From the UHGV virus genome UHGV-0113858: DNA of 64,000 bases. One strand, given 5' to 3'. Made by a program: the position numbers and the translations under genes. This stretch comes from a virus. Below, in pieces: positions 646 through 23,465 of this stretch. Position 1 is the first letter of the stretch, and each line of letters opens with the position of its first letter. Below the pieces are notes generated by a model that saw only the letters and a list, made by a program, of their open reading frames with translations, was not told the DNA's origin and made no database searches.

Positions 646-674
646 TTGCAAAAGAAAATAAACGGTGTTAAAAT
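646..674 (+). promoter_or_regulatory. sigma70-like promoter, TTGCAA-N17-TGtTAAAAT (extended -10)
   Basis: ttgcaa 646-651, 17-nt spacer, tgt+taaaat 666-674, 18 nt upstream of ATG 692; same architecture recurs at 4 other + strand sites. Confidence 0.5.
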
Positions 675-691
675 AACTATCAACGGGGAAA

Positions 692-1321
692 ATGATGAAA
701 TACTCAAGTATTGCTGACCTTCCTGCATCAGTATCGAATCTGTCTCTCATTCAGAAGAGCAAGGTGCTGGTTCTCGCAAATGGCCTGATTGATTCAGGCC
801 TATCTCCTGAAGCCGCTATTGAGAAAGCATCTAAAGATGTACTCCATGTAGGGCTGAAGAAGACAGCAATTCAAAAGAATGCCAAGCCTGTATCTGTTGT
901 CAAAGATGCTGGAGAACAAATGATTTCTTACGAAGTCATTTATGAACCAAACACTAGGGATGCCCACGGTGAATGGATGTCTCCAGAGACAATCGTCAAA
1001 GGTAAGGAAAGTTTCGATGCTGCGCGAGCGGCTGGTCTTGTTAAAGAGAACCTGTTCCACATTGTCGAGACTGATGCCTTTACCATCGAGAAGACTTGGA
1101 TTCAAGAAGAGTTTGATGTCGTGGTTATCGGTAGCGAGCAAATCATTAAAGCTGGCACCTGGGTAGCTAAGGTTAAATACAATGATCCTGAACTGTGGCT
1201 CTTGAAAAAGGCCAACGCTGTCGGTGGACTGAGCATTCAATGCTCTGGCTACACAGACAAGGAGACTGGTGAAATCACCGGACTCGATTTCGGGATTGAG
1301 ATTGCCGAGGAAAACGAATGA
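692..1321 (+). CDS. putative prohead protease / head maturation protein
   Basis: 209-aa ORF between portal-like and scaffold genes; ATGA overlap with next gene; call is by position only. Confidence 0.3.
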   Translation: MMKYSSIADLPASVSNLSLIQKSKVLVLANGLIDSGLSPEAAIEKASKDVLHVGLKKTAIQKNAKPVSVVKDAGEQMISYEVIYEPNTRDAHGEWMSPETIVKGKESFDAARAAGLVKENLFHIVETDAFTIEKTWIQEEFDVVVIGSEQIIKAGTWVAKVKYNDPELWLLKKANAVGGLSIQCSGYTDKETGEITGLDFGIEIAEENE

Positions 1322-2313
1322 GCGCACTCGTAGTCAAGGCCAAAACTATTAAGGATAAGGGTATCGCACTCTGCCACGAGAGTCAAGGTTATTCTGCAAA
1401 TATGCGTCCGGTTAGTCTTCTGATGAAGTCTGACCTTGCACCTGAACAGATTACCAAAGACGTGGTTAAGGCACTTCGCCAAGTTACTGTCGATATGAGC
1501 TTTGAAGAATTCCTTCGTCGCTTCTTCGATATGTGGAGTAGTGATGCTGAACTCCTTGCCAAACTTTTGGGCTTCGAAACAGAACTGGAAAACGCTGCTG
1601 CTGAAAATCCTGATGATGAATGGCTGCAACGTTGGAATGATGATAACCAAGAATGGTTAGAATCGAAGATGGAGTCCATCTCTATCGCCAAAGCTGCAAA
1701 TGCAGGTGAAGAGCTGGACCTTGTGAAGCAATATGAACTAATCAAACTCCAACAGATGTTTGAGAAGGGTGTTGCAGAGCACGGTGTCATTTTTGATGCC
1801 AAAGACACTCAGGAGACTGAGGTCATCAAGGACGCTGCTAAACCAGACGTACCTGTTCAAAATACAATTGAAAACAAGGAGACCTCTGTGTCCGATACTG
1901 TTGATGTAACCAAATCCCAGGAGTACCTGGACCTGGTTAAAAAGCTTGAAGAAGCTAATGCAAAAAATGCCCAAGCAGAACTGATTATCAAGGCTGCTGT
2001 TGAAGCAGAAAAGAAAAATGCTCTTACAAAAGCCAAAGGTTTTACTTTTGCCGCTGAAGAAGACCATGAATCTCTTGCTGACTTCATCATTGAAAAAGCT
2101 AACGCCCCAGTGGTAGCTCTTCTGGAAAAAGCCCAAGCTCGTATTAGCGAACTGGAAACAGAAGTTGAAACTGTGAAGAAAGAGTTCGGTACTCAGGAAA
2201 ATGGTATCAACCAAGAGGTTGTTACTGAAGACCTAGCTAAGTCCGCCGAAGATGTTCTTAAAGCTAACGTGCAGAAAGCTCTAGAAGCTGCTCGCGCTCG
2301 CAAAACTGCCTAA
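1318..2313 (+). CDS. scaffolding protein
   Basis: 331 aa, acidic, Glu/Lys/Ala-rich predicted coiled coil (EEANAKNAQAELIIKAAVEAEKKNALTKAK...), directly upstream of decoration/capsid genes. Confidence 0.55.
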   Translation: MSALVVKAKTIKDKGIALCHESQGYSANMRPVSLLMKSDLAPEQITKDVVKALRQVTVDMSFEEFLRRFFDMWSSDAELLAKLLGFETELENAAAENPDDEWLQRWNDDNQEWLESKMESISIAKAANAGEELDLVKQYELIKLQQMFEKGVAEHGVIFDAKDTQETEVIKDAAKPDVPVQNTIENKETSVSDTVDVTKSQEYLDLVKKLEEANAKNAQAELIIKAAVEAEKKNALTKAKGFTFAAEEDHESLADFIIEKANAPVVALLEKAQARISELETEVETVKKEFGTQENGINQEVVTEDLAKSAEDVLKANVQKALEAARARKTA

Positions 2314-2332
2314 TATCGAGGAGATAATATAA

Positions 2333-2755
2333 ATGGCTAATCCGATTCAAGGGTTCTACTCTGACATCGTCCTGGGTAAAGTTGATTCTTCTGATCAGGG
2401 CTACAGCTTCCTGGAAATGGAAATCACTTATTCCGCAGGGCTGAAGGCCGGTATGATCGTTAAGTCTGATGGTACTCTGGCTGCAACTGCCGACGCTGCA
2501 AGCGCATTTGGTGTAATCACCGACCGCGACCTGGTGACTTCTTCTTACACCATGCCACGTCCTTTCGTAGTTGGTCAAAAATACAATTTCGTGGTTGCTG
2601 TTCGTGGTCTGACCCTGAACAAATCCAAACTGTTCTTTGCTGACGGTACTACTGCTATCAACGCTGCTGCTATCGCTGCTCTTGAGGCCAAAGGTCTGAA
2701 GATCACTGATAAATATTACGACGGCTCCGTTGAGATCCCAGTAACGTCTATCTAA
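2333..2755 (+). CDS. head decoration / capsid accessory protein
   Basis: 140 aa, strong SD (gaggag), highly biased codon usage like the capsid gene, between scaffold and major capsid protein. Confidence 0.35.
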   Translation: MANPIQGFYSDIVLGKVDSSDQGYSFLEMEITYSAGLKAGMIVKSDGTLAATADAASAFGVITDRDLVTSSYTMPRPFVVGQKYNFVVAVRGLTLNKSKLFFADGTTAINAAAIAALEAKGLKITDKYYDGSVEIPVTSI

Positions 2756-2775
2756 TCTACACCAAGGAGAAAATA

Positions 2776-3789
2776 ATGGCAGTAGTACGCACTAATGATT
2801 TCCAGATCGTTGACCTAGGCGCAACTCTGGAAATTGTACCTCGTCAGTACCGTATGATCACCAACATGAACCTTTTCGAGGCTTATCACGGTGTCTCTAC
2901 TATCGCCCAGATCGAGCGTGTTGACGAAGTTGTAACCGACTTCCCAGCTCGTCGTCGTCAGGGTGAACGTAACTACGTTGGTACTGAAAAGGCCCAACTG
3001 AAAAACTTCAACATCCCGTTCTTCCCGCTGGATCGTCAGATCACTCCGGCAGACGTACAGAACTTCCGTAAATATTTCACTGCGGACGCTCCTAAATCTG
3101 TACAGGATGTAGTTGAACGTGTTGTTCGTCGTATCCGTGTTTCTCATGAACAGCTTAAAGAAAAAGCAATGCTTCAGGCAATCATGGGTAAATCTTGGGC
3201 ACCGCAGGACCCGACCGCTCAGTATAACTACTTCACCGAATGGGGTGTTACCCAAGAAGTTGTTAACGTAGATTTCACTGACGTTGCAGTTGACCCGTCT
3301 GACCTGCTCGAAAACGATGGTCGTGCATTCATCATCGACAACGCTGGTGACAACGGCGATAACTACGACATCGTAGTTCTGGCTTCCCGTAAATGGTTCT
3401 CTGCTTTCGTTGCTCACCCGCTGGTCATGAACGCATACCAATACTACAGCTCTACTCAAGAGCCGCTGCGTCGTCGTCTTGGTGACGGACAAGAGAACGC
3501 TAACAACCGTTCCTTCGTTCATAAGAACGTTCTGTACATCGAAGATATCTCCGGCTACATCCCGGACGGTGAAGCTTACATGCTGCCACGCGGTATCGAC
3601 AACATGTTCCAGATCCACTACGCACCAGCAGACGATGTTCGTGAAGCGAACACTCCGGCACAAGAACTGTACCTGTGGTACAAATCTTCTGCTTACCTGC
3701 GTGAAGAGAAGGTTGAATCTGAAACCTCCTTCCTGACAGTTAACTGCCGCCCAGAGCTGGTTGTTAAACTGACTGGTACTTTCGCGTAA
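2776..3789 (+). CDS. major capsid protein
   Basis: 337 aa, strong SD aaggaga, extreme high-expression codon bias (CGT/CTG/GGT), follows scaffold, followed by a strong terminator. Confidence 0.7.
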   Translation: MAVVRTNDFQIVDLGATLEIVPRQYRMITNMNLFEAYHGVSTIAQIERVDEVVTDFPARRRQGERNYVGTEKAQLKNFNIPFFPLDRQITPADVQNFRKYFTADAPKSVQDVVERVVRRIRVSHEQLKEKAMLQAIMGKSWAPQDPTAQYNYFTEWGVTQEVVNVDFTDVAVDPSDLLENDGRAFIIDNAGDNGDNYDIVVLASRKWFSAFVAHPLVMNAYQYYSSTQEPLRRRLGDGQENANNRSFVHKNVLYIEDISGYIPDGEAYMLPRGIDNMFQIHYAPADDVREANTPAQELYLWYKSSAYLREEKVESETSFLTVNCRPELVVKLTGTFA

Positions 3790-3810
3790 TATAGCTTAAA
3801 GCTACCTCTA

Positions 3811-3846
3811 AGAGGGGGAGGTGTTAATCACCTCTCCCTTTTTTCA
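3811..3846 (+). terminator. rho-independent terminator after capsid gene
   Basis: gagggggaggtg/cacctctccc stem followed by a T-run at 3839-3845. Confidence 0.6.
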
Positions 3847-3909
3847 TTTTAAGATTAGCATGGCTGTCTTAGATGTCAAGTAGCTTTTCTGAGGATCAAA
3901 GGAGATTCT

Positions 3910-4422
3910 ATGGCAAACCAAAATTATCGCATTTTCCCGAACAAGGTAGAGCTTTTCAAGTTCTTTGGTGCTTACATCCCTGAATTGAACATTAGTGCTT
4001 CAAGCCGTTTACCACTGAATGGGTTCGCCATTGGTAAGCAACTAAAAGCTTTCCGTTCTTTCATGGATTTCTTCCAGGAGCTTGCAGACCTGTCTGGACT
4101 CCCGGTGGATACCAAGACCTCTACCCTGAGAATGGGTAACTTCATCGTATTCTTTAACGGTGACATCACACCACCAGGTGTTAAATCGAAAGTTAAAGAA
4201 ACTGTCGTTGAACAGACTGTGGAGGATAATGCAGAGGTCGTTGAGCCAGCAAAGGTTGATGTAAAAGCAATTATTGCTGAGGCATCTGCATTGCTTGACG
4301 AAGCCGACAAAAAAGGCAGTAAAGACAGACTTGCTGAATTTGCAGCAAGCAAGGGTATTACCTTGTCGAAGAGCAAAACATTTGAAAATATGTTGGCTGA
4401 CTTCGAATCCTCACTGAAGTAA
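3910..4422 (+). CDS. hypothetical structural protein
   Basis: 170 aa with SD aaggaga; acidic C-terminal half. Confidence 0.4.
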   Translation: MANQNYRIFPNKVELFKFFGAYIPELNISASSRLPLNGFAIGKQLKAFRSFMDFFQELADLSGLPVDTKTSTLRMGNFIVFFNGDITPPGVKSKVKETVVEQTVEDNAEVVEPAKVDVKAIIAEASALLDEADKKGSKDRLAEFAASKGITLSKSKTFENMLADFESSLK

Positions 4423-4441
4423 TAATCTTAGGAGATTTAAA

Positions 4442-4738
4442 ATGGCAACATCTGGTGTAGCTGGACTGGTCTACGGTACAAAACTGATTGACATTGCAAC
4501 TGGCGACGTTATTTCCTTCGCCGACATTATCTCTGTCGCAGGTGGTGGCTCTGTCGCATGGGCAGACATTACTGGCAAACCAACCACTTTTGCTCCTGTA
4601 GCTGCAACCACTTCTGTGGTTGGTGGCGTTAAAATGGCAGCAACACAGGCCAACACGGCGGCGACCGACGTAGCTGGACTGGTTACTGACTTTAATGCCC
4701 TTCTTTCCAAGCTGAAGGCTGCTGGCATTATGGCGTAA
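4442..4738 (+). CDS. small fibre-motif protein (WADITGKPTTFAP)
   Basis: 98 aa, SD aggag; contains the ITGKPxTF motif typical of phage tail/side fibre shafts; followed by a terminator. Confidence 0.45.
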   Translation: MATSGVAGLVYGTKLIDIATGDVISFADIISVAGGGSVAWADITGKPTTFAPVAATTSVVGGVKMAATQANTAATDVAGLVTDFNALLSKLKAAGIMA

Positions 4739-4743
4739 TATAA

Positions 4744-4768
4744 AGGCCCTCCGGGGCCTTATTTTTTT
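4744..4768 (+). terminator. rho-independent terminator
   Basis: aggccctccggggcct hairpin followed by a T-run at 4761-4768. Confidence 0.6.
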
Positions 4769-5157
4769 AGTAGCGGTCTCGCCTCTGGTTTCAAAGATAC
4801 CTGAAGATAAGGTTGTCGGCCATCCTTATAATATTTACAGATATAAGTTCCTGTTGCAAGAACAGTACCGTTCACTATCCCCATATTTCTCATTACTTGG
4901 AAACTATCTTCTTGTTCTTCCATCTCATCTAACATACCTGTCTGCGTCGTCAGAGTGCCGGGAATGAATGCCTTTCTGAATTCTGTATCGCATTTCATCC
5001 CAGCAATCCGATGAATGGCCTCTGTTTTTTCTTCAGCCGACAACCAGCTTGAAGAAACATCGTCGAATTTGTTCATATTGGGGTTGGTTTTCATAAAGTA
5101 GATAAGTCCACCCGAGACAACGATGGCTGTGATAACACCTGCTATTACTGCTTTCAT
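4759..5157 (-). CDS. moron: N-terminally membrane-anchored protein of unknown function
   Basis: Opposite-strand gene inside the late block; real start MKAVIAGVITAIVVSGGLIYF at 5157 with SD gaggag; own promoter at 5184-5211. Confidence 0.5.
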   Translation of the reverse strand: MKAVIAGVITAIVVSGGLIYFMKTNPNMNKFDDVSSSWLSAEEKTEAIHRIAGMKCDTEFRKAFIPGTLTTQTGMLDEMEEQEDSFQVMRNMGIVNGTVLATGTYICKYYKDGRQPYLQVSLKPEARPLLKK

Positions 5158-5183
5158 GGGATTCTCCTCAATAATTTTCTTTG

Positions 5184-5211
5184 AGAATAGCATCCTGCAA
5201 CATGATGTCAA
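5184..5211 (-). promoter_or_regulatory. sigma70 promoter for the moron (TTGACA-N16-TATTCT)
   Basis: Reverse complement of 5206-5211 is TTGACA, of 5184-5189 is TATTCT; 16-nt spacer. Confidence 0.45.
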
Positions 5212-5281
5212 GTGTTTTTGATGACAAAATCGATGTTCTATGATAAGATATTGATAAATAGAAGAGCTTGAAGGAGCGAAA

Positions 5282-5800
5282 ATGACAGACCAAGAAATTG
5301 TTGCTTATATCCGCCTGCTCCTTGGGTCCATTTCCCCGGAAGTCCTGCCAGATGATATCATCCTTGCCTTTTTGGCAATCGAGAAATCAAAGGCTAATTA
5401 TCCCGGTGATGATAACACACCATGCACAGTTTATTACGTTATTTACAATACCCTTGTTGACGTGGTACGTTGGTTGATTCTTCAGGAAGTGAACACAGGG
5501 GAGGCATCGATCACGGATCGTCTTGAAAAGATTGGTGATGAGACTATCCAGGTCAAAGGTGGTTCCCCGTATCAGAACTGGAAAGACTTCCTCGCCTGGC
5601 TGCTTGAAAACCCTGATTATGTCAATGATTGCTTAAGCGCAGTCAGAGGACTTATTATCGTTGGTGGTGTTCGTGAAGACGAGTTCAACCGTGTTAAATA
5701 CGACAGAAACTCCCGTGGTCCTTTCGATGTCGGCGGTGTAATTCCACAGACCGGGGTTCCAGGAATTCCTCGTCGATACCCTCGCCGTTGGCCTTGCTAA
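5282..5800 (+). CDS. putative head-tail adaptor / connector protein
   Basis: 172 aa, SD aaggag; first of four short genes between the capsid module and the sheath-like gene. Confidence 0.3.
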   Translation: MTDQEIVAYIRLLLGSISPEVLPDDIILAFLAIEKSKANYPGDDNTPCTVYYVIYNTLVDVVRWLILQEVNTGEASITDRLEKIGDETIQVKGGSPYQNWKDFLAWLLENPDYVNDCLSAVRGLIIVGGVREDEFNRVKYDRNSRGPFDVGGVIPQTGVPGIPRRYPRRWPC

Positions 5801-5818
5801 TTATCCAAACCTTTATCG

Positions 5819-5847
5819 TTGATTTTGCTAAGATAATGTGGTAAAAT
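5819..5847 (+). promoter_or_regulatory. promoter motif TTGATT-N17-TGgTAAAAT
   Basis: Same architecture as 646-674; 18 nt upstream of ATG 5866. Confidence 0.45.
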
Positions 5848-5865
5848 ACCTAAACGGATACAGTC

Positions 5866-6339
5866 ATGAGACCAAGATTCACAAGTACGCAAGACCTTAG
5901 CCAGTTAATGAACTTCTTTAATGCGGTTAAGAAGCTTGATTATCGTCAGGTAAGCTACGGCTTTTTCGACGATCCTCACTATTCCGGCCTGAATACTGCA
6001 ACGCTTGCAGCAATTCACCAAGAGGGTTGGAATAATCTCCCGGCTCGTACTTTCATGACTAGCGCGGGTGTTCTTTTCCAGAAAGAACTTAAAAAATTTC
6101 AGATCGACCTCTTTGGTCAATTGGCGGCGGGGGCACAAGACCCGACTCCAGTCCTGAAACAAATCGGTCAAGCAGGTGCAGACAAGATTCGATATGTCAT
6201 CGATGGTGGTCTGTTCCCTAATAACATCGTATCGGATGCATGGGCTGATGTCAAAGGATTTAAAGAGGCCATGTTCCACTACGGCGACCTGAAGTCATCT
6301 GCAACCTATAGGATTTCCACTGGAAAGGGGAATAAATGA
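5866..6339 (+). CDS. head-tail joining / neck protein (hypothetical)
   Basis: 157-aa ORF tiling the connector region. Confidence 0.35.
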   Translation: MRPRFTSTQDLSQLMNFFNAVKKLDYRQVSYGFFDDPHYSGLNTATLAAIHQEGWNNLPARTFMTSAGVLFQKELKKFQIDLFGQLAAGAQDPTPVLKQIGQAGADKIRYVIDGGLFPNNIVSDAWADVKGFKEAMFHYGDLKSSATYRISTGKGNK

Positions 6340-6773
6340 CACCAGGCTACAGACTAATAGGCAGGAATAAGTTGATTCCGAGAAAAACCTTCATCGGAAG
6401 ACATCGTACTTTTTCCCAGCCAGATCCAGACAATCCATTCGAAAATCAAGAGATCGCTGTTCAGTATGAAGAGTTTGATGTCTTAGAGTGTGTTGTTCAA
6501 CCCTTGACAGGCAAGGCAGCAAGAGACTACACCTCTCATTTGACCGAGGCTGGCGGTAGACAGTATGATTCATTCACTGTATATTCGTCAACTCTTCTTA
6601 AAGGTCCTGTCGAAGGTTCTTTCCTGCTAGCAGACCAAATCCAGCTCATGAATTCCCGTGGGGAAATGGAATGGTTTACTGTTATCAAGTCTGATCCGTA
6701 TCAGACGACAGGGGTTAGCCGTTACAGAGCGTATGTGATCTCTACGCCTGCGGGGACAGAAGGAGGCCTATGA
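6336..6773 (+). CDS. head closure / tail completion protein (hypothetical)
   Basis: ATGA overlap with previous gene, SD aagggga. Confidence 0.35.
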   Translation: MTPGYRLIGRNKLIPRKTFIGRHRTFSQPDPDNPFENQEIAVQYEEFDVLECVVQPLTGKAARDYTSHLTEAGGRQYDSFTVYSSTLLKGPVEGSFLLADQIQLMNSRGEMEWFTVIKSDPYQTTGVSRYRAYVISTPAGTEGGL

Positions 6774-7315: not shown

Positions 7316-7347
7316 CTTTATGAAAGAAATAGAAGAAGAGGAAATCA

Positions 7348-8844: not shown

Positions 8845-8847
8845 TAA

Positions 8848-9321: not shown

Positions 9322-9327
9322 TAGCGT

Positions 9328-9352: not shown

Positions 9353-9402
9353 TTTCAAACACGCATGGATATAACAACCTTAAAAGACGCAGGAGCGTAC
9401 AC

Positions 9403-10161: not shown

Positions 10162-10195
10162 AAGCCAGGTTCCTTTTCAGGAGCCTGGCTTTTTT
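10162..10195 (+). terminator. hairpin with T-run after the GT gene
   Basis: agccaggttcc...ggagcctggct then tttttt. Confidence 0.4.
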
Positions 10196-10207: not shown

Positions 10208-12619
10208 ATGGCAAATATTATAGTGACTTCCACAGTCAACAAGGTGACATGGGATGTTGACAAAACATCCTTTGGACGCGCCTTGAAAGCTGTAAAGCAA
10301 ATTCGTTCCGAATGGGAAAAGACCGGGAAGGCTTTTTCTTCTGCTAAGGCCGACCCTGCTGCTGCCCTGAAACGTTCCGCTATGCAGGCGAGAATGGTTA
10401 ATAAACGACTCAATCAAACTGAACGTGCAGAGGCAGCTAAGACCACAGCTCACAATATCGCAATGGCAAAGAAAGAAGCTCGTGCTCGTGAAGCCATTGA
10501 TAAGATTGAAAAGGCACGTCGTAAGGCTGCTGTATCCAGACTAACTACTGGTCGATCTCCAGAGTCTCAGGCAAACTATAATGCCCTAAAGGCACAGCTC
10601 CGTCAACAAGAAAAACTTGCTGCTAAGAACGGCAATTATGGAACTAACCCTTCCATTTCTGCTGCACGTATGGCAGCATATGAAGCAAGCCTGAAAAATA
10701 AGGGCGCGGGGAGCGGCGGATCCTCAATCCTGAATCCTAATGCAACACCTCACGATCCTCGTCTTGCAGAGCAACAACGTAAGGCAATGGAGCGTGACCA
10801 TGCACGTATGCGTCGTGAGCAAATAAAGCAGGATAAGGCAGACAATAAGACCAGAGAGAAAATGGCCCGCGATGCAGAGCGGGAAGCGGGGAGAAGAGCA
10901 AGAGCGCGTGAAGCAAAGATAAGTACAATCTCTAACGCCAATATTCGTCTTCGTGCCAAGTATGGTGATAAATATGCAAGGCAACTGCCTGGTTATGATT
11001 CTTTAGTCAACCGCTATATGAAGAGCGGGAACATGAAGGCATCAAACTTCCGTGCAGAGCTTGCTGCTATGGAAACTGGACTCCGTAAAGCTAATGCCAA
11101 TACTCTTTCTCTGAATGATGGCCTGAGAAATCTACGTAGTACATTAATCAGCGTAACAGCAGCATACGGAGCATTCAATGCCGCTGCAAGCGTTCTGAAA
11201 ACTGGACAGTTCTTCCAGGGTATGGAAGCAACAATGCTGATGGTGTCCGATGACTCCGCAGAGGCTGGTAAGCGTATTGAATTTGTGAGAAACCAGGCGT
11301 ATCGTTTAGGTCTCGACCTTAAGGTAGCTGCGCAGGGTTACACACAAATGTCTATCGCAGCAAACGGTGTGCTTACTAAATCACAAAACGACGAACTCTT
11401 CAAGTCATTCTCTGAGTATGCAACTGCTCTTCAGGTTGACCCTGTAAAATACCAACGCGGTATTACAGCTATTCAACAGATGATGGGCAAAGGACAGATC
11501 ATGTCTGAAGAACTTAAGCAACAGCTTGCCGAGGGTATCCCCGGATCATTACAGGTGTTCGTGAAGGCATCGCAAGAAGCTTTTAACGACTCCTCCATCA
11601 ACGTGGAGAAGTTGATGGATATGATGAAGGATGGGGAACTGAAAGCTGCTAAAGTGCTTCCGTTCGTTGCTAAATACTATGCTGAAGCTGCTAACAAGGG
11701 AGGAGCACTACAGAAAGCTTTACAAGGTAACCGGGTTGCTATGCAACGTCTTGGTCAGACTTGGATGAACTTCCAGAACAAGATCTTCGAATCTGGTTTT
11801 GGTGATAAGATGACAGAGACATTTAATAACCTTGCCAAGATTCTTGACTCTAATGGTCCTCTTGCGGCTGCGGTAGGTCAGTTTGTGGCAGGGTTTATTG
11901 ATGGCTTCATGAAGATACCTTATGCCCTGTATAATGCCTTTACTATGGTCAATGCGATCTTGGAGAGATATATCCCCATATTCAGAAAGAATGGGGAAGA
12001 TATTTCTAAGACATGGAACTGGGTTGGCTGGGGCATTGGCGCTCTCTTCTTCGCAACATCGCTGGTCCGTGTATTCAATATCCTTGCTAAGATTGCAGGT
12101 CTTGCTGGTGCGATCAAGGGAATTGGGGCTGTTTTTGGTAAAGGCGAGGGCGCTCCACCGGGCGGAGGGGAAGGTGGCGGCGGGTCCGGTCCTGCCAGGG
12201 GTGGCAGATTCTCTCGTATAGGTAAGTTCTTTAAAGGAGCGGGTTCTTTAGGTGGACTGCTGTCTCTGTTCACCTTAGGGTCTGAACTTAACGACAGATA
12301 TAACCCCTACAGTGACTTCAACGAAGAGCGTGGTAAAGTTTTCTCCAATGTTCATGACAGTATTGTTAGTGGCAAAACAGGAGGATGGTTCTCTAACCTC
12401 TGGGGGCCTGATAAGGCAACCCTGGATTATCTGAACAATCAGATGCCTGGGGCGAATGGTAAGTCTTCTGCTACCCCTCCGATGGTTATCCCTACTGAAC
12501 CTGTGGCTGGTGAAATAACTATCAAACTGGATGCCGGAGAGCTGAAGAACATGATCGACCAACGAATCGATGCTTCAAACATGGGTAACATCAATTTAAT
12601 CCTTGGTGTCCCAGATTAA
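10208..12619 (+). CDS. tail tape measure protein
   Basis: 803 aa, long Ala/Lys/Arg-rich coiled coil, internal hydrophobic segment, Gly-rich stretch, follows the G/GT chaperone. Confidence 0.75.
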   Translation: MANIIVTSTVNKVTWDVDKTSFGRALKAVKQIRSEWEKTGKAFSSAKADPAAALKRSAMQARMVNKRLNQTERAEAAKTTAHNIAMAKKEARAREAIDKIEKARRKAAVSRLTTGRSPESQANYNALKAQLRQQEKLAAKNGNYGTNPSISAARMAAYEASLKNKGAGSGGSSILNPNATPHDPRLAEQQRKAMERDHARMRREQIKQDKADNKTREKMARDAEREAGRRARAREAKISTISNANIRLRAKYGDKYARQLPGYDSLVNRYMKSGNMKASNFRAELAAMETGLRKANANTLSLNDGLRNLRSTLISVTAAYGAFNAAASVLKTGQFFQGMEATMLMVSDDSAEAGKRIEFVRNQAYRLGLDLKVAAQGYTQMSIAANGVLTKSQNDELFKSFSEYATALQVDPVKYQRGITAIQQMMGKGQIMSEELKQQLAEGIPGSLQVFVKASQEAFNDSSINVEKLMDMMKDGELKAAKVLPFVAKYYAEAANKGGALQKALQGNRVAMQRLGQTWMNFQNKIFESGFGDKMTETFNNLAKILDSNGPLAAAVGQFVAGFIDGFMKIPYALYNAFTMVNAILERYIPIFRKNGEDISKTWNWVGWGIGALFFATSLVRVFNILAKIAGLAGAIKGIGAVFGKGEGAPPGGGEGGGGSGPARGGRFSRIGKFFKGAGSLGGLLSLFTLGSELNDRYNPYSDFNEERGKVFSNVHDSIVSGKTGGWFSNLWGPDKATLDYLNNQMPGANGKSSATPPMVIPTEPVAGEITIKLDAGELKNMIDQRIDASNMGNINLILGVPD

Positions 12620-12625
12620 TACAAG

Positions 12626-12650
12626 GGGCTTCGGCCCCTTTTTCGTTGTT
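12626..12650 (+). terminator. rho-independent terminator
   Basis: aaggggcttcggcccctt then ttttcg. Confidence 0.55.
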
Positions 12651-12674
12651 TTATTTGAAGATTTATGATAAAAT
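12646..12674 (+). promoter_or_regulatory. promoter motif TTGTTT-N17-TGaTAAAAT
   Basis: Same architecture; 26 nt upstream of ATG 12701. Confidence 0.45.
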
Positions 12675-12700
12675 CATAACAAGCTTATTGAGGAGGTTTT

Positions 12701-13573
12701 ATGGCAGTTGTAGCAAGTAACCAGTCCAAACCGCAACAAGGTAAGGCTACAGCAAACGTTGAGCAAAAAGTCTCTACGGCTCAGAATGCCAGTAGTGAAG
12801 TTCAATATACTTTATTTGCAAGCGGCCTTAACAATGGCGGAAGGAATGTAGAATTAAAAAATAAAAACTATACGGACAATATTGCGATTTTATTTGATGT
12901 CGTTGAAGACCATACGTATACAAGAACTGTTGACAAAACCTCCTACGCAGTAGAGAATAAGGTCAAGTACAGTGATCATGGTGTGATAGAGGATGGTAAA
13001 TTCTCTTTCAGTGCGAGAATCAATAGCTCGCCCCTATACCTGATTGAGAATAACTACATCGATAAAGATACCGACCCTAACAACCCGGTAGAATCCCGTC
13101 GCCCAGAAAAGGCACTGGAGGTACTAGAAAGGCTTATCACTGACCGCCAAATCGTCACCATTGTTACTGAAGACCGTATCATCGAAAACTACATCTTGAC
13201 CTCCCTGGAGGCAAGCCGTAGCAATTCTGATGGTGCTGCGTTGGTATTTCAGTTAGAATTCACAGAATTCCGTACTTTTACCCTTGGGAAGACGGCCTTA
13301 GCTACAGTCTATACCGACCCTAAAAAATCAGGTGGTAAGACAAAGCAGAAAGGTTCTGTTCAGTCTTCTGCCACAGATAATGAAGTGGAAGTGACCGCAA
13401 GGAGAACCAAGTTCGCTGGGCCTAATCAAGATGGTTGGCAAAAGGTTGCAGATGAAATGGGTATTGGTGATTATACCAAGCAAGATCAAGTGGTGGGAAC
13501 ACTGACGCCGGACGGTAAACTCAAGGATCTAAATGGAAATACCCTCGACTATAATAAAGCGGTAGGTAACTAA
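12701..13573 (+). CDS. baseplate / tail protein (Mu gpN-position)
   Basis: 290 aa, SD gaggagg, first gene after tape measure. Confidence 0.4.
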   Translation: MAVVASNQSKPQQGKATANVEQKVSTAQNASSEVQYTLFASGLNNGGRNVELKNKNYTDNIAILFDVVEDHTYTRTVDKTSYAVENKVKYSDHGVIEDGKFSFSARINSSPLYLIENNYIDKDTDPNNPVESRRPEKALEVLERLITDRQIVTIVTEDRIIENYILTSLEASRSNSDGAALVFQLEFTEFRTFTLGKTALATVYTDPKKSGGKTKQKGSVQSSATDNEVEVTARRTKFAGPNQDGWQKVADEMGIGDYTKQDQVVGTLTPDGKLKDLNGNTLDYNKAVGN

Positions 13574-15620: not shown

Positions 15621-15629
15621 GGGGAATAG

Positions 15630-16244: not shown

Positions 16245-16272
16245 AAATTATTACAATTCGAGATTTCTTTTA

Positions 16273-16310
16273 GGTCTGTGCTACCTAACGGCAGACCTTT
16301 GTTCTTTTAA
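16273..16310 (+). terminator. hairpin with T-run
   Basis: aggtctg...cagacct stem then ttgttctttt. Confidence 0.4.
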
Positions 16311-16333
16311 ATCTTTGAAGTTTGTGGTAAAAT
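16305..16333 (+). promoter_or_regulatory. promoter motif (weak -35 TTTTAA)-N17-TGgTAAAAT
   Basis: tggtaaaat 16325-16333; 32 nt upstream of ATG 16366. Confidence 0.4.
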
Positions 16334-16365
16334 GTACTAATGTTAAGAAGAGGGGTAAATAAAAG

Positions 16366-18252
16366 ATGCTACAGAGTGTTAAAATTTCAGAGTTGCCAAG
16401 TGCGGCCACGCTGACAGAAGACGACCTGATTGTGGTTGACCAACCAGATGATACTAAGAAAGCGACTTTGTTCCAAGTATTTTCAACTGTTATCGATGAG
16501 GTTGAAAATGCAACATTTGATGTTCTTTCCCAAGAAGACGGTGCTGAGAAGATAGGTTTTAAAGTAAATTCTACCAACGCGATTATGCGGACAGTGATGG
16601 GGAGGCTACTGGACACAATCAATGTAATGGACTTTGGAGCAAAAGGTGATGGGGTTGCTGATGATTACCCTGCATTTCAATATGCGGCTCTCTATGCAAA
16701 CTCTATCGGCGGGGCGTTGATTGAGATACCAACCCCGTCTGTTGAGTACAAGATTGGATTTCCAGTATACCTCTTCGATAATACGCATTTTAAAGGTAGT
16801 GGGATAAATTGTAGAATAAATTTCACAGACCCCCTTTATGCCCGAAAATCAAGAAGTGGATTTGTAATTGGCAGCGGGCATGAACAAAACAGGGATAAGG
16901 CGATTCAATGCCTAAATGATGGGACTTGGAAAACGACAGGGTCTGTCGTAAATACAAGTTTTGTTGAATTACCTAGAGGGAGTTATCTTCGGGATAATCT
17001 TAGTAAGGTACAATCTTCAAACTGTAGTGTCAGTGATGTATATTTGGTGGCGAGCTACCCTAATGGGACAACTCTTAAGGGTGGGTATGCAGTGTCTTTT
17101 GCAAATGCACTGGACTCTGAAGCCTATAATATTTGGGGAGAGGGGTGGACGGAGATAATAAATATCGGATCAGACGTTCCTCCAGCCACACCCAGTTGCC
17201 ATAATTGCCACGCTTATAACATTACCTGTATTGATCCTAATCAGTATGAAACATACTATAGTATGGGTTTTATAGCGAATTCAACTTCTTGCTCTATTCA
17301 CAACTTCTTCCAACTAAAACCAATCGCAGATGGCACCCCTCATGGGTCTGGCGGTTCTATGAACTACACGGAAGATTGTGCATTTTATAACATTAATATC
17401 CCCAATCTTGGAAGAACTAGTACATCTGAGGGATTACTTGTAAACAATTCTAAGAATGCAAGGACATATAATATTTATATAGGTAATGCCAAGTCTGGGG
17501 TTGCTGAATATTATACTACAGAAGCGGGGGTATTCTATGATGCTGCAAAACCTAATATCTTCGAGGATATACACGCTAATAACTGTGATCACGCTACAGC
17601 CTTGCGCTCTAAATATAGTGTTTGGAAAAATGTAACACAAACAAATTGTGTTGACCATGTATTTTTTGGCACTAGCAATGCGCAATACTGTGTGGTTAAG
17701 TTTGTTCCTGACCTCATTGGGTATGGTAGTGGATTAACACCGTGGCACATTTTACAAAATAACTACGTGGATGGTTGGAGAGTTAGAACCAAGTACCTTC
17801 GTCCTATCGACTGGCTTTTGAATGACAAGGTTGATCTCCAATCCTACGATACCAATAAAAACATGAAGGCGAAGGCTGCGGTTAATTTAAAAGTGTTATA
17901 CGACATACCTGCAAGCATACGTGCGATAGCCGAATGTCGTTGTTTCTTGACTTTCGAAGTTGGCGCTCTTAGTGCTGGATCAAATGTAAAAATGTCGTTG
18001 CGAAGAATGGTGTCATACTCTGGTAATGCCAACGAATTACCATATATCGAGGCAACAAATACAAGGGCTGCAACTGTTGATACTGTACAAGATACTACAC
18101 TTGTTATGCCTGTCACTAATTCAAAAGGGTTTGTAGAACAATCAGATACTACCAATGGATTAGCCAATGCCTTAGACCTTCTAATCGAGATAAATAGTCC
18201 AACCGTAAATATGAACTTGAAAGAAATCAAGTTGACTTATTTGGGCGATTAA
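16366..18252 (+). CDS. tailspike / receptor-binding protein 1 with conserved N-terminal anchor
   Basis: 628 aa; N-terminus MLQSVKISELPSAATLTEDDLIVVDQPDDTKKATLFQV is shared with the genes at 18278 and 22563; C-terminal region Asn/Gly/Thr-rich, beta-helix-like. Confidence 0.6.
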   Translation: MLQSVKISELPSAATLTEDDLIVVDQPDDTKKATLFQVFSTVIDEVENATFDVLSQEDGAEKIGFKVNSTNAIMRTVMGRLLDTINVMDFGAKGDGVADDYPAFQYAALYANSIGGALIEIPTPSVEYKIGFPVYLFDNTHFKGSGINCRINFTDPLYARKSRSGFVIGSGHEQNRDKAIQCLNDGTWKTTGSVVNTSFVELPRGSYLRDNLSKVQSSNCSVSDVYLVASYPNGTTLKGGYAVSFANALDSEAYNIWGEGWTEIINIGSDVPPATPSCHNCHAYNITCIDPNQYETYYSMGFIANSTSCSIHNFFQLKPIADGTPHGSGGSMNYTEDCAFYNINIPNLGRTSTSEGLLVNNSKNARTYNIYIGNAKSGVAEYYTTEAGVFYDAAKPNIFEDIHANNCDHATALRSKYSVWKNVTQTNCVDHVFFGTSNAQYCVVKFVPDLIGYGSGLTPWHILQNNYVDGWRVRTKYLRPIDWLLNDKVDLQSYDTNKNMKAKAAVNLKVLYDIPASIRAIAECRCFLTFEVGALSAGSNVKMSLRRMVSYSGNANELPYIEATNTRAATVDTVQDTTLVMPVTNSKGFVEQSDTTNGLANALDLLIEINSPTVNMNLKEIKLTYLGD

Positions 18253-18277
18253 AGATAAATTTTCAGGAGAATATTAT

Positions 18278-20827: not shown

Positions 20828-22248
20828 TGGCGACCATTGTAAAAAGTAATATGAAAATTAAAGGTAATATTAAATTACCTCCTGTAAATGCCCCTCTTCC
20901 AGAGGGGGCTAATCTCTTCTCGGACTTTGCAGGCTCTCGTCATGTAATCAAACATGCCAGCGGTAATGTTATTCGCTCAACTAAACTTACGGATATTCTC
21001 TCATTCTCGAGAGCAAGTACCGCAACTCGGGTCGCTGAAAGCGGATTACTGGAGTACCTCCAGGCGAATGAGCCCGCTATTGATTATCACCCAATGTCCG
21101 GGGAGTGTCTGGGTTTGCGGATTGAGCGGGGTACGTCGAATCGCCTCGCATGGAGCCAGGACTTTACTAAAACTGCCACCTGGTCTGCTTCTGGTGTTGT
21201 GCTCACGCCTGCGTCCGCTGTTTCACCGGACGGCAACCTTACAGCAACCAAGATGATTGAGGCCACAGATACCGCAGCATCAGTACGAAAACTGGCAGCA
21301 ACGACAACGGTGGATGGAACTAAAGGTAATCCCTTCGCCTTTAGCGTTTTTGCGAAAGCGAATACTGCGGACGTACTTCAGCTCTCGGCTGTGGGAGCAT
21401 TCCCTGGCCCGACCTTTGTTAACTTTGATCTGAAAAATGGCCGGCTCGGGAAAACCTCGACAGGATCAACCACAAGAGGGTTATTGCAGGCATCAATCGA
21501 ACCATTCCGCAACGGCTGGTATCGTTGCTCAATTGTCATCATCCCGTATAGCGCCATGAATCCGGAATTTACGCTGGCGTTGGTTGATAACGATACCAGC
21601 GCCGGGCCGATGCCTTCGTATTTGCCTGCAACACCTAAATCGGTATTTATCTGGGGGGCGCAGGCTGAGTTTTCCGATGGGACATCATCCTACATCCCAA
21701 CTAACGGCGCAGAGGCTCAGCGGTCGAATGATATCTGCACCACGCCGACTGTGGCATCGTTTGTGACTGCCGCAGCTGGTACGGTCTTGGTTTCGGTTGC
21801 GTTTCCTCACAGTATCATGGCTCTCACCGAGACCTACGGATCGCTGTCCTGTGCTGCCGTAATTGATAATTCTGTCGTAGGCCCGCATGTGCGATTCGCG
21901 TACCGGAATGCGAACGTTGATGGCAATTATGGTGCAGTGCTCGGCGTGGTTCCTGACGCGACAGGAACGGCGCAGAATCTGGAAATTCCCAGCATGGCTC
22001 CCGTGCCTGACAGCGAGCAATCGTGCATTTTTTCGTTCGACGCGACTGCGCTGAATTCCAGACTGTTTGACGGGTATAACTGGTATGAGCGGAGTTTTAC
22101 TGCAGCACCACCAGCCCTGAATCGCCTGTGTATCGGCCGGGGATATCTGGATTCCAGCAACTACCTGAAGGGATACATTAAAAAGATCATTTACTGGCCT
22201 ACAGCTTTGTCTGAGAGCGAAATGGAAGAAATTCTCTCTTATCAGTAA
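20827..22248 (+). CDS. putative receptor-binding / tail-associated protein within the GC-rich block
   Basis: 473 aa, start overlaps the previous stop, SD gggga; GC-rich composition continues from the RBP2 C-terminus. Confidence 0.45.
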   Translation: MATIVKSNMKIKGNIKLPPVNAPLPEGANLFSDFAGSRHVIKHASGNVIRSTKLTDILSFSRASTATRVAESGLLEYLQANEPAIDYHPMSGECLGLRIERGTSNRLAWSQDFTKTATWSASGVVLTPASAVSPDGNLTATKMIEATDTAASVRKLAATTTVDGTKGNPFAFSVFAKANTADVLQLSAVGAFPGPTFVNFDLKNGRLGKTSTGSTTRGLLQASIEPFRNGWYRCSIVIIPYSAMNPEFTLALVDNDTSAGPMPSYLPATPKSVFIWGAQAEFSDGTSSYIPTNGAEAQRSNDICTTPTVASFVTAAAGTVLVSVAFPHSIMALTETYGSLSCAAVIDNSVVGPHVRFAYRNANVDGNYGAVLGVVPDATGTAQNLEIPSMAPVPDSEQSCIFSFDATALNSRLFDGYNWYERSFTAAPPALNRLCIGRGYLDSSNYLKGYIKKIIYWPTALSESEMEEILSYQ

Positions 22249-22493
22249 GTTCGCCCTGTCCTAAATAGTGATAGGTGCAATCACACTTGATCTTCACTTT
22301 CGATAAAAATGCTGTATATAAAAACAGTGCTTATCGGATTGCAGATCATGCTTCGACATCCAGAAGTAGCCCGCTTTAGCCAGCAGTCCCTCAGTTTTCT
22401 TTTCAGATAAAAACTGTATGTAGAACCAGTTTTGATCGGGAGGACCATGTTCCAGCATAGATTAATAGGGTAGGTATAACAGTTAAATTCTCC

Positions 22494-22511
22494 CCAGCAC
22501 CTAGGTGCTGG
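22494..22511. promoter_or_regulatory. perfect 18-bp palindrome ccagcacctaggtgctgg
   Basis: Self-complementary; lies in a 300-nt noncoding gap upstream of the 22563 gene. Confidence 0.4.
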
Positions 22512-22528
22512 TATGCAAAAAAAAAATC

Positions 22529-22544
22529 CACAGATGCATCTGTG
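22529..22544. promoter_or_regulatory. perfect 16-bp palindrome cacagatgcatctgtg
   Basis: Self-complementary; 19 nt upstream of ATG 22563. Confidence 0.4.
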
Positions 22545-22562
22545 TCTCATATCGGGGTTAAA

Positions 22563-23390
22563 ATGGCAACAACAGAACTCTCAGTTATCAAGATAAAAAA
22601 TCTTTCTGATAAGACCCTTGTAACAGGCAGTGATGAAATTATTATCCAATCTTCCACTGACACTGAGAAGACGTCCATTAATAAGTTCATCACTGATATA
22701 GGGCTTCTTAAAAGAAGTGAAGTAACAGGCATCACAGGTGCCTCCGTTATTGGCACTCACTCTGGGGCTACTGTCCAGCAAGTTTTGGACAGCCTTTCTA
22801 ATAGTTGGCAGAATTTGTACTATTTCTCCACTACTGGGAATGAGATCGGAACACATGTTGACACCATTGCCCTTAGCCCTGTGCAAAGAACTTATGGTGT
22901 TCAAATATCAACACCTTTAGCATCATTTTCTCCTAAGGTAGACAATGTATTGTCCAACGGTACAACATCTCTACGTTGGAGTCAAGTGTATGCAGTTAAC
23001 AGTGTAATCTCCACATCAAATAAAAAGAAGAAAACAAATCTTCGACAAATTACACCTACAGAAGCAAAAGCTTTTTATGAAATTGGGAAACTAGATTCCG
23101 TATGGCAATGGTTGTCTAAATATTCTTCCGAAAAGGGTGCTGCTAGGCTTCATTCAGGGCCTACTGTGCAGGATGCTATTAAGGTCATGCTCAAACACGG
23201 TCTCGATTGGACCAAGTATTCAGCTTTCTGCTATGATAGCTGGGAAGCGAATGGGGATACTCCCGCAGGTGAAGAATTCGCTTTTAGAAAAGAAGAACTC
23301 TTATTTTGGATACTTAGAGCAACAATTGCGGTGCAGGAAGATCTTGACAAGCGCCTTTCAGCCTTGGAAAATTCTCTGTCCGGTAACTAA
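22563..23390 (+). CDS. tail fibre with shared N-anchor and a C-terminal peptidase-S74-like intramolecular chaperone domain
   Basis: N-terminus MATTELSVIKIKNLSDKTLVTGSDEIIIQ parallels the other two anchors; C-terminus ...SNKKKKTNLRQITPTEAKAFYEIGKLDSVWQWL...HSGPTVQDAIKVMLKHGLDW resembles endosialidase/T5 pb1-type chaperone domains. Confidence 0.45.
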   Translation: MATTELSVIKIKNLSDKTLVTGSDEIIIQSSTDTEKTSINKFITDIGLLKRSEVTGITGASVIGTHSGATVQQVLDSLSNSWQNLYYFSTTGNEIGTHVDTIALSPVQRTYGVQISTPLASFSPKVDNVLSNGTTSLRWSQVYAVNSVISTSNKKKKTNLRQITPTEAKAFYEIGKLDSVWQWLSKYSSEKGAARLHSGPTVQDAIKVMLKHGLDWTKYSAFCYDSWEANGDTPAGEEFAFRKEELLFWILRATIAVQEDLDKRLSALENSLSGN

Positions 23391-23391
23391 C

Positions 23392-23416
23392 CACCCTCCG
23401 GGGTGGTTTTTTCATT
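23392..23416 (+). terminator. rho-independent terminator
   Basis: accaccctccggggtggt then ttttttc. Confidence 0.55.
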
Positions 23417-23436
23417 TATGACCCCTCCCCCTTTAT

Positions 23437-23465
23437 TTGCAAAACACTGCCACGTATGGTAAAAT
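23437..23465 (+). promoter_or_regulatory. promoter motif TTGCAA-N17-TGgTAAAAT
   Basis: Exact 17-nt spacer; 35 nt upstream of the TTG start at 23501. Confidence 0.5.

What the first reader, a model, noticed from the sequence alone, without database searches (positions are those of the whole stretch)
646..23465. Five copies of a conserved promoter architecture TTGnnn-N17-TGnTAAAAT across the late module
The sites are 646-674 (TTGCAA/TGtTAAAAT), 5819-5847 (TTGATT/TGgTAAAAT), 12646-12674 (TTGTTT/TGaTAAAAT), 16305-16333 (weak -35/TGgTAAAAT) and 23437-23465 (TTGCAA/TGgTAAAAT). Each lies in an intergenic gap, several right after a terminator. An invariant extended -10 with a variable -35 suggests a phage-specific middle/late promoter class. 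It may be recognised by host sigma70 modified or assisted by a phage factor. A related cATGGTAAAAAT lies upstream of the - strand gene at 36476.
Basis: seen in the sequence. Interest (0 to 1): 0.55.

Follow-up and report, generated by a model that had tools for sequence, protein, structure and literature searches.

The report
Late-gene promoters of an rV5-like phage
The five sites are real, strongly conserved promoters at the heads of the virion-gene operons of a Klebsiella rV5-like phage. They look like ordinary host sigma-70 "extended -10" promoters, and the same motif was already reported for phage rV5 in 2013.

Summary
All five TTGnnn-N14-TGnTAAAAT sites lie at the stated coordinates, in intergenic gaps 17-35 nt upstream of + strand morphogenesis genes. 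Five intergenic copies compare with 0.2 expected by chance.

The window is a Klebsiella Mydovirus (Vequintavirinae), about 95% identical to phage KB57. The element stays in place upstream of orthologous genes in five genera while its flanks diverge. For the baseplate-wedge gene, 22 of 23 distinct relatives keep it.

The anatomy fits a sigma-70 promoter of the extended -10 class:
- TTG lies exactly 17 bp from the -10 hexamer in 26 of 38 sites.
- A purine precedes TG in 35 of 38 sites.
- The -10 hexamer is TAAAAT.

The early and DNA-metabolism genes use a different class, TTGACA-N16/17 with a variable -10 and almost no TG.

Kropinski et al. (2013) published this motif (TggTAaAAtA) as the putative late promoter of rV5, with the same speculation about modified RNA polymerase. 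Novelty is therefore low. Whether a phage factor is needed remains untested. I found no sigma, AsiA, MotA, gp33 or gp55 homologue.

The parts
646..674 (+). Late promoter 1. -35 TTGCAA at 646-651, TGT at 666-668, -10 TAAAAT at 669-674, predicted start near 681. It heads the protease (692-1321, Peptidase_S78_2/XkdF), decoration and major capsid operon.
   Evidence: TTGCAA-N14-TGnTAAAAT is kept in all five genera, including rV5 (L005 43331) and CR9, where the flanks differ. The protease assignment comes from Pfam.
5221..5249 (+). It lies upstream of the gene at 5282-5800.
   Evidence: The orthologous position carries TGATAAGAT (Seunavirus), TGTTAAAAT (Henunavirus) and TGGTAACAT (Certrevirus).
5819..5847 (+). 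Late promoter 2. -35 TTGATT, TGG, -10 TAAAAT at 5842-5847, predicted start near 5854. It heads the neck/tail-completion, sheath and tube operon (gene 5866-6339). A second TGCTAAGAT sits in its spacer at 5826-5834.
   Evidence: TTG(A/C)TT-N14-TGGTAAAAT is kept in five genera and corresponds to rV5 P056.
12623..12640 (+). Intrinsic terminator after the tape-measure gene, immediately upstream of late promoter 3.
   Evidence: 7-pair stem, 5 G-C pairs, T-run. One search gives -12.7 kcal/mol.
12646..12674 (+). Late promoter 3. -35 TTGTTT, TGA, -10 TAAAAT at 12669-12674, predicted start near 12681. It heads the Dit-like (12701-13573) and baseplate hub/spike operon.
   Evidence: Relatives carry TGATAAAAT in three genera, TGCTAAAAT in CR9 and TGATACAAT in rV5.
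16272..16298 (+). Hairpin followed by a T-rich run, a probable terminator, upstream of late promoter 4.
   Evidence: 8-bp stem, -11.2 kcal/mol. The simple scan did not call it because the loop is 11 nt.
16305..16333 (+). Late promoter 4. Weak -35 TTTTAA, TGG, -10 TAAAAT at 16328-16333. It heads the tailspike gene 16366-18252.
   Evidence: The same site is present in KB57 at 39542. It could only be compared within Mydovirus.
23389..23408 (+). Intrinsic terminator immediately upstream of late promoter 5.
   Evidence: 8 pairs, 5 G-C pairs, T-run. One search gives -14.6 kcal/mol.
23437..23465 (+). Late promoter 5. -35 TTGCAA, TGG, -10 TAAAAT at 23460-23465, predicted start near 23472. It heads the baseplate wedge gene (23501-24994, TTG start codon) and the tail-fibre genes.
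   Evidence: 22 of 23 distinct relatives (52-99% protein identity) keep TG(G/A)TAAAAT after a terminator while the flanks diverge. It corresponds to rV5 P036.
31635..31663 (-). Contrast class: early/middle-type promoter TTGACA-N17-TAAGAT, without TG, in the DNA-metabolism block.
41883..41911 (-). Contrast class: TTGACA-N17-TAAAGT, without TG.
   Evidence: The KB57 counterpart is at 13464.
44044..44071 (-). Contrast class: TTGACA-N16-TATGAT, lying inside the group I intron and upstream of its HNH ORF.
5184..5211 (-). Contrast class inside the late module: TTGACA-N16-TATTCT. It drives the only - strand gene there (membrane protein, 4759 to about 5157) and diverges from the 5221-5249 promoter.
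   Evidence: The gene annotation comes from KB57_068.

Best explanation
These are the internal promoters of the late (virion morphogenesis) gene block of a Klebsiella rV5-like myovirus.

Architecture. Each is a sigma-70-type promoter of the extended -10 class: TTGnnn, then 14 nt, then (A/G)TGn, then TAAAAT, then usually A.

Inferred recognition by the host RNA polymerase holoenzyme:
- sigma-70 region 2 reads TAAAAT (5 of 6 matches to TATAAT, with the key T-12, A-11 and T-7 present);
- region 3.0 reads the TG;
- region 4.2 reads the partial -35 TTG.
Transcription should start 6-8 nt after the hexamer. That gives short leaders of about 10-30 nt ahead of the ribosome-binding site.

Role. The promoters head successive sub-operons:
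- protease to capsid;
- neck, sheath and tube;
- Dit-like protein and baseplate hub;
- tailspike;
- wedge and tail fibres.
Three of them restart transcription just after an intrinsic terminator.

Status of each step.
- Shown here: position, orientation, enrichment, conservation across five genera, the sigma-70 geometry, and the contrast with the TTGACA class used for early and DNA-metabolism genes.
- Inferred: The last rests only on the kind of genes they precede.
For: Enrichment and placement:
- 5 intergenic copies against 0.2 expected; all are co-oriented and lie 17-35 nt from a start codon.
- The full architecture occurs 4 times against 0.11 expected.

Conservation:
- The element is retained upstream of the orthologous protease, neck, Dit-like and wedge genes in Mydovirus, Seunavirus, Henunavirus, Certrevirus and Vequintavirus, while the flanks change.
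- 22 of 23 distinct wedge-gene upstream regions keep it.

Sigma-70 geometry:
- TTG lies exactly 20 nt before TG in 26 of 38 sites (T 37/38, T 34/38, G 27/38).
- A purine precedes TG in 35 of 38 sites. This matches the E. coli TRTGn extended -10 preference (own knowledge).
- Nothing else upstream is conserved, so there is no shared activator site.

Independent support:
- The generic sigma-70 scan picks four of the five sites on its own.
- In the complete relative KB57, the intergenic copies sit before structural genes. These include the large terminase and a virion structural gene (KB57_162) embedded in the opposite-strand block.
- KB57's 13 intergenic TTGAC(A/T) promoters all lie outside the late module. 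None has TAAAAT, and only 1 of 13 has TG.
- No sigma or sigma-appropriator homologue was found.

Prior report: the same motif in rV5, PMC3606486.
Against: - There are no 5'-end or expression data for any member of the subfamily. None was found in the held library.
- The hexamer is always TAAAAT or a near variant. It is never the sigma-70 optimum TATAAT: 0 of 92 non-coding TGnTAnnnT sites in six loci, against 28 TAAAAT. Plain sigma-70 recognition does not explain this.
- The clean split into two promoter classes hints at a temporal switch, and the model does not account for it.
- The 38 sites used for the logo were selected by the exact motif and include orthologues, so they are not independent.
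Confidence: 0.7

Rival explanations
1. The sites form a dedicated late-promoter class that host RNA polymerase uses only after a phage factor changes its specificity. The factor could be a sigma-like protein, a sigma-70 appropriator, a flap or region-4 binder, or a late-promoter-binding protein.
For: - The motif is confined to morphogenesis genes, wherever they lie in the genome.
- There is a strict class split from the TTGACA promoters.
- The third -10 position is A and never T.
- In relatives the motif sits in tandem with a TTGACA promoter before a tRNA-region gene. That arrangement suits expression in two temporal phases.
- KB57_114 gives a weak Phage_DsbA match (20.9 bits, E 4e-4).
- Kropinski et al. 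noted the resemblance to the T4 late motif TATAAATA.
Against: - A conserved TTG at sigma-70 spacing, and R-TG, point to an intact sigma-70 with region 4 engaged. AsiA-type or gp55/gp33-type systems do not use a -35 (own knowledge; T4 late system reviewed in PMC2988020).
- No sigma, AsiA, MotA, gp33 or gp55 family hit at E < 4e-4 among 150 small KB57 proteins, or at E <= 1e-3 among 10 large ones.
- The DsbA hit falls below Pfam's cut-off of 25 bits.
- The rV5 'Srd-like' gp11 orthologue (KB57_222) has no family hit, and RefSeq annotates it as an HNH endonuclease.
- Some rV5 copies combine the motif with a consensus TTGACA or TTGACT -35 (P036, P051). Unmodified polymerase should use those strongly.
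Confidence: 0.22
2. The motif acts at the RNA level, for example as a processing site, a leader element or a translation signal, and not as a DNA promoter.
For: It always lies on the sense strand, close to start codons.
Against: - A second conserved element (TTG) sits at a fixed 14-nt distance upstream. This is promoter geometry.
- Three sites lie downstream of terminators, so the downstream genes need a new start there, and this motif is the only conserved element in those gaps.
- The distance to the start codon varies from 17 to 35 nt in the window and up to about 55 nt in relatives.
Confidence: 0.03
3. The sites are chance or compositional matches in A+T-rich intergenic DNA.
For: Seven further exact copies lie inside genes, at about the background rate.
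Against: - 0 of 5000 intergenic shuffles reach the observed count.
- The element is retained in 22 of 23 diverged relatives.
- TAAAAT makes up 30% of non-coding TGnTAnnnT sites (28 of 92) against 3% of coding ones (29 of 856).
Confidence: 0.01

Closest known systems
Putative late promoters of coliphage rV5 (motif TggTAaAAtA; Kropinski et al. 2013, Virol J 10:76, PMC3606486)
   Same: - Same phage subfamily and same motif, upstream of late morphogenesis genes.
- Several sites are orthologous: P036 is the wedge gene, P056 the neck gene, and the P048 region the Dit-like gene.
- Same speculation about modified polymerase.
   Different: - The rV5 sites were found by MEME in one genome, without comparison to relatives, and were likened to the T4 late motif.
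- This work adds a fixed -35 TTG, a purine before TG, and conservation in five genera.
- It also adds one rV5 site not on the 2013 list (L005 43331, before the protease gene).
- Mydovirus has no copy before the chaperone gene, where rV5 has P051.
E. coli sigma-70 extended -10 (TGn) promoters
   Same: TG lies one base upstream of a TAnnnT hexamer. A purine precedes TG. The -35 is weak or partial at 17-bp spacing.
   Different: The hexamer is fixed as TAAAAT and never TATAAT. The sites form a regulon limited to phage late genes.
T4 late promoters (TATAAATA, read by gp55 with gp33 and the gp45 clamp; PMC2988020)
   Same: An A+T-rich -10-centred motif before late genes. The 3' half, AAATA, is shared. 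This is the resemblance noted in PMC3606486.
   Different: - Only 5 of 8 positions match when GTAAAATA is laid against TATAAATA.
- A conserved -35 TTG and the TG dinucleotide are present.
- No gp55, gp33 or gp45 homologues are reported for rV5, and no sigma-like hit was found here.
T4 middle promoters (MotA box at -30 plus a sigma-70 -10, with AsiA)
   Same: A sigma-70 -10 element, often with TGn. Some -35 hexamers here read TTGCTT, which resembles the TGCTT core of the MotA box.
   Different: - The hexamer sits at the sigma-70 -35 position (17-bp spacer), about 2 bp away from the MotA-box position (own knowledge of the T4 geometry).
- Most sites read TTGCAA, TTGATT or TTGTTT.
- No MotA or AsiA family hit was found.
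Thermus phage P23-45 middle/late promoters (extended -10 without -35; phage gp39/gp76 bind host polymerase) - own knowledge
   Same: Late genes are served by extended -10 promoters, while another class serves early genes. This offers a possible model for a switch based on dependence on the -35.
   Different: Here the -35 TTG is conserved.

Membership tests
Sigma-70 extended -10 promoter | A -10 hexamer of the form TAnnnT close to TATAAT | tested here: met
   TAAAAT in all five sites (5 of 6 matches); TAAGAT in the variant at 5244-5249.
Sigma-70 extended -10 promoter | TG dinucleotide one base upstream of the -10 hexamer, preferably preceded by a purine | tested here: met
   TGn is present in all sites. 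A or G precedes TG in 35 of 38 sites across genera.
Sigma-70 extended -10 promoter | A -35-like element at 17 +/- 1 bp, which may be weak | tested here: met
   TTG lies at exactly 17 bp in 4 of 5 window sites and in 26 of 38 sites overall. No other offset is enriched.
Sigma-70 extended -10 promoter | Transcription starts 6-8 nt downstream and depends on sigma-70 holoenzyme | not testable with these tools
   This needs 5'-end mapping or in vitro transcription. No such data were found in the library.
rV5-type putative late promoter (PMC3606486) | Motif TggTAaAAtA upstream of late morphogenesis genes of a Vequintavirinae phage | tested here: met
   The window is a Mydovirus (Vequintavirinae). The motif matches, and the sites are orthologous to rV5 P036 and P056.
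T4-type late promoter (gp55/gp33/gp45) | TATAAATA at -10 | tested here: not met
   The consensus is (A/G)TGnTAAAAT(A); 5 of 8 positions match at best.
T4-type late promoter (gp55/gp33/gp45) | No -35 element | tested here: not met
   TTG is conserved at sigma-70 spacing.
T4-type late promoter (gp55/gp33/gp45) | The phage encodes gp55-like and gp33-like proteins | tested here: not met
   No sigma-like or gp33/gp55 family appears among 150 small and 10 large KB57 proteins. rV5 is reported to lack them. Caveat: only the 25 best of 51 families were listed.
T4 middle promoter (MotA/AsiA) | MotA box centred at -30 in place of the -35; MotA and AsiA encoded by the phage | tested here: not met
   The conserved TTGnnn sits at -35 with a 17-bp spacer. 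No MotA or AsiA hit was found.

The most novel reading that the evidence does not exclude
The TGnTAAAAT sites form a true late regulon. Host polymerase uses them only after modification by, or with the help of, a Vequintavirinae protein unrelated to gp55, gp33, AsiA or MotA. That would be a new early-to-late switch in a phage subfamily that one recent preprint calls 'poorly studied'. The invariant A at the third -10 position, never T, would then be the specificity mark.
Probability: 0.2. Interest if true: 0.55.

Novelty: already known. Interest (0 to 1): 0.22.

Why it matters
This work yields a checked promoter and terminator map of the late module of a Klebsiella phage group that is used for therapy. 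Such a map is useful for placing reporter or payload genes under late control.

It also defines a compact, testable regulon: about ten sites per genome, conserved across five genera. With it, one can ask how rV5-like phages time late gene expression. No experiment on that question was found.

As a discovery it is minor. The motif and its reading were published for rV5 in 2013, and the anatomy is that of an ordinary sigma-70 extended -10 promoter.

Tried and rejected
1. My first full-architecture pattern used a 20-nt gap and found nothing. The corrected pattern gives 4 hits.
2. Literature searches for 5'-end or transcriptome data on Vequintavirinae, Mydovirus, rV5-like phages and PVP-SE1 found none.
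   - The CB7 paper describes only the early TTGAC class in Certrevirus.
   - The KPP-1 (Mydovirus) paper has no promoter analysis.
   - The HIDEN-SEQ preprint has nothing on transcription.
3. The search for a phage specificity factor by Pfam covered 150 small and 10 large KB57 proteins. It found no sigma, anti-sigma, AsiA, MotA, gp33 or gp55.
   - The only lead is a sub-threshold Phage_DsbA match in KB57_114, which lies outside the window.
   - The rV5 'Srd-like' gp11 maps to KB57_222. It has no family hit and also lies outside the window.
4. The search for related loci with a single protein reached only close relatives. An alignment query reached proteins down to 52% identity. One coordinate set failed to translate.
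5. The T4 late-promoter and MotA-box readings were rejected on geometry.
6. The sixth site, near 36476, was rejected because it is coding and off-consensus.
7. My greedy ORF maps over-extend some genes. Intergenic counts in KB57 were therefore checked by eye against the RefSeq tables.


Full report
**What the window is.** The first 24 kb match Klebsiella phages of the genus Mydovirus (Vequintavirinae, the rV5-like myoviruses). Identity is about 95% over 78% of the length, and KB57 (NC_028659) is a good reference.
- Positions 1-30022 are the + strand morphogenesis block. It runs from the protease through decoration protein, major capsid, neck, sheath, tube, tape measure, Dit-like protein, baseplate and tailspikes to wedge and fibres.
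- From 30068 onward the genes lie on the - strand and encode DNA-metabolism functions.

TGNTAAAAT occurs 12 times in the window against 3.8 expected.
- All five lie in intergenic gaps, which make up only 4.9% of the window.
- All five are on the + strand, 17-35 nt upstream of a + strand start codon.
- Shuffling the intergenic sequences gives 0.2 copies on average, and none of 5000 shuffles reaches five.
- With the -35 TTG included, the pattern occurs four times against 0.11 expected.
- The other seven exact copies are intragenic, at about the background rate. TAAAAT makes up 3% of coding TGnTAnnnT sites and 30% of non-coding ones.
- Two one-mismatch variants in gaps were missed: ATGACA-N17-TAAGAT with TG at 5221-5249, and TGCTAAGAT at 5826-5834 inside the spacer of the 5839 site.
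- Clear intrinsic terminators precede the 12666 and 23457 sites, and a weaker hairpin precedes 16325. The 666 and 5839 sites have none.

**The sites are conserved.** I took the late modules of rV5 (Vequintavirus), FENT2 and 4MG (Seunavirus), Erwinia phage pEp_SNUABM_01 (Henunavirus) and CR9 (Certrevirus), and read the sequence upstream of each orthologous gene.
- The element is retained before the protease, neck, Dit-like and wedge genes in all five genera, while the surrounding intergenic sequence changes.
- The variants seen are TGCTAAAAT, TGATACAAT, TGGTAACAT and TGATAAGAT.
- For the wedge gene, an alignment-based scan of viral contigs gave 23 distinct upstream sequences from proteins 52-99% identical. 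Of these, 22 carry TG(G/A)TAAAAT a few tens of bases after a terminator hairpin.
- In the complete KB57 genome there are 22 exact copies. The intergenic, co-oriented ones sit before the wedge gene, a tail protein (two copies), the tailspike, the Dit-like gene, the neck gene, the protease and the large terminase. Another sits before a tRNA-region gene. One more sits before a 'virion structural protein' gene (KB57_162) embedded in the opposite-strand block.

The motif therefore follows late genes, not a genome region.

**Anatomy.** I aligned 38 sites from these genomes.
- Apart from the selected core, the only conserved positions are T, T and G at exactly 20-18 nt before the TG (37, 34 and 27 of 38).
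- The full trinucleotide TTG is present there in 26 of 38 sites and is enriched at no other offset.
- A purine directly precedes TG in 35 of 38 sites, and an A follows TAAAAT in 26 of 38.
- This is the geometry of a sigma-70 promoter: a -35 TTG, a 17-bp spacer, the TRTGn extended -10 and a TAnnnT hexamer.
- No further upstream element is shared, so there is no sign of a common activator site.
- The generic sigma-70 scan picks up four of the five sites by itself.
- Predicted starts lie near 681, 5854, 12681, 16340 and 23472, which gives leaders of about 10-30 nt.

**A second promoter class.** The - strand block of the window has TTGACA-N16/17-TAnnnT promoters in its gaps: 31635-31663, 41883-41911 and 44044-44071. 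The single - strand gene inside the late module has one too, at 5184-5211.
- In KB57 the 13 intergenic promoters of this kind all lie outside the late module.
- They have 13 different -10 hexamers, none of them TAAAAT, and only one has TG.
- This class matches the early/middle promoter AAAA(N3)TGTTGAC(N19)TATAAT described for Certrevirus (PMC7344957) and the 33 sigma-70 promoters listed for rV5.
- In relatives, a late-type site and a TTGACA promoter stand in tandem before a gene in the tRNA cluster.

**Prior art.** Kropinski et al. 2013 (PMC3606486) submitted the upstream regions of rV5 late genes 27-66 to MEME. They reported eight copies of TggTAaAAtA as putative late promoters.
- They noted a resemblance to the T4 late consensus TATAAATA and the absence of gp33, gp45 and gp55 homologues.
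- They suggested a Srd-like protein (gp11) as a possible switch.
- Their P036 and P056 are orthologous to the 23457 and 5839 sites.
- I found no experimental follow-up in the held library.

What this analysis adds is modest:
- conservation across five genera;
- the fixed -35 TTG and the purine before TG;
- the complete absence of TATAAT;
- one rV5 site not on the 2013 list (before the protease gene, L005 43331, TTGCAA-N14-TGATAAAAT), which also suggests that the annotated start of rV5 gp063 lies too far upstream.

**How it most likely works.** The simplest reading is that host sigma-70 holoenzyme uses these sites directly, and that they head or restart the late sub-operons. My confidence is about 0.7.

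The rival reading is a class that needs a phage factor. My confidence is about 0.2.
- In its favour: the restriction to late genes, the clean class split, and the never-T third position of the hexamer.
- Against it: the conserved -35 contact, which gp55/gp33-type and AsiA-type systems do not use.
- Also against it: rV5 copies that combine the motif with a consensus -35.
- Also against it: no recognisable factor. Pfam scans of 150 small and 10 large KB57 proteins gave no sigma, anti-sigma, AsiA, MotA, gp33 or gp55 family.
- The only lead is a sub-threshold Phage_DsbA match in KB57_114 (20.9 bits against a cut-off of 25).
- The orthologue of rV5 gp11, KB57_222, has no family hit. Both genes lie outside the window.
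- 'Late' timing is inferred from gene content only.

**The sixth site.** ATGGTAAAAAT at 36500-36510 (- strand) exists.
- It has an extra A, so the hexamer lacks the final T.
- It lies inside the 3' half of a Phage_tudor gene, which in this window is split by a one-base deletion relative to KB57.
- It is not a member of the class on present evidence.

**Verdict.** The feature is real and functional by conservation, and its anatomy is ordinary: sigma-70 extended -10 promoters. It was already described for this phage subfamily. The open question, untouched by experiment, is whether and how these promoters are timed.

Noticed in passing
window 43541-44182 (- strand); ORF 43621-44022: A group I intron (Rfam RF00028, 66 bits) interrupts the DNA polymerase gene, leaving exon ORFs at 44171-46210 and 42809-43504. 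It carries an HNH_3 endonuclease ORF with its own TTGACA promoter at 44044-44071. KB57 has an uninterrupted polymerase gene (10547-13189).
   Followed up: partly
window 36466-36743 (- strand): A Phage_tudor domain gene is split into two ORFs that match profile halves 1-45 and 46-89. The cause is a one-base deletion in a T-run relative to KB57_024. It could be a real frameshift, a pseudogene or a sequencing error.
   Followed up: partly
window 22249-22541 (boxes at 22312-22327 and 22414-22429): This 293-nt gap holds two LexA-box-like palindromes, CTGTATATAAAAACAG and CTGTATGTAGAACCAG. Part of it (about 22270-22365) resembles temperate Klebsiella phages. KB57 has two TGATAAAAT promoters before the orthologous tail-protein gene; this window has none there. 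The region seems to have arrived with a swapped tailspike cassette.
   Followed up: partly
window 4759-5211 (- strand): This is the only - strand gene in the late module (a membrane protein, orthologue of KB57_068). It has an early-type TTGACA-N16-TATTCT promoter at 5184-5211, arranged back to back with the late-type promoter at 5221-5249.
   Followed up: no
window 10162-10191: A strong hairpin with a T-run lies 16 nt before the tape-measure start codon. It is conserved in four of the five genera compared; Certrevirus CR9 lacks it. It may act as an attenuator limiting tape-measure expression after the chaperone genes.
   Followed up: no
KB57 63835-63877 (- strand), with counterparts at L006 6165, L007 10318 and L008 8355: A late-type TGnTAAAAT site is followed 5 nt later by a TTGACA-N14-TGATAACAT promoter, ahead of a small gene in the tRNA cluster. 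The tandem is conserved in four genera. It suggests expression in both temporal phases.
   Followed up: partly
L005 43331 (rV5 record, about 56330, - strand): TTGCAA-N14-TGATAAAAT lies 19 nt before an in-frame ATG of the rV5 protease homologue (gp063, annotated as a DNA methyltransferase). The site is absent from the 2013 list. It implies that the annotated start, which overlaps gp064, lies too far upstream.
   Followed up: partly
window 3852-3879 (- strand): An antisense TTGACA-N16-TAATCT promoter-like site lies in the gap after the major capsid gene, next to the strong terminator at 3810-3842.
   Followed up: no
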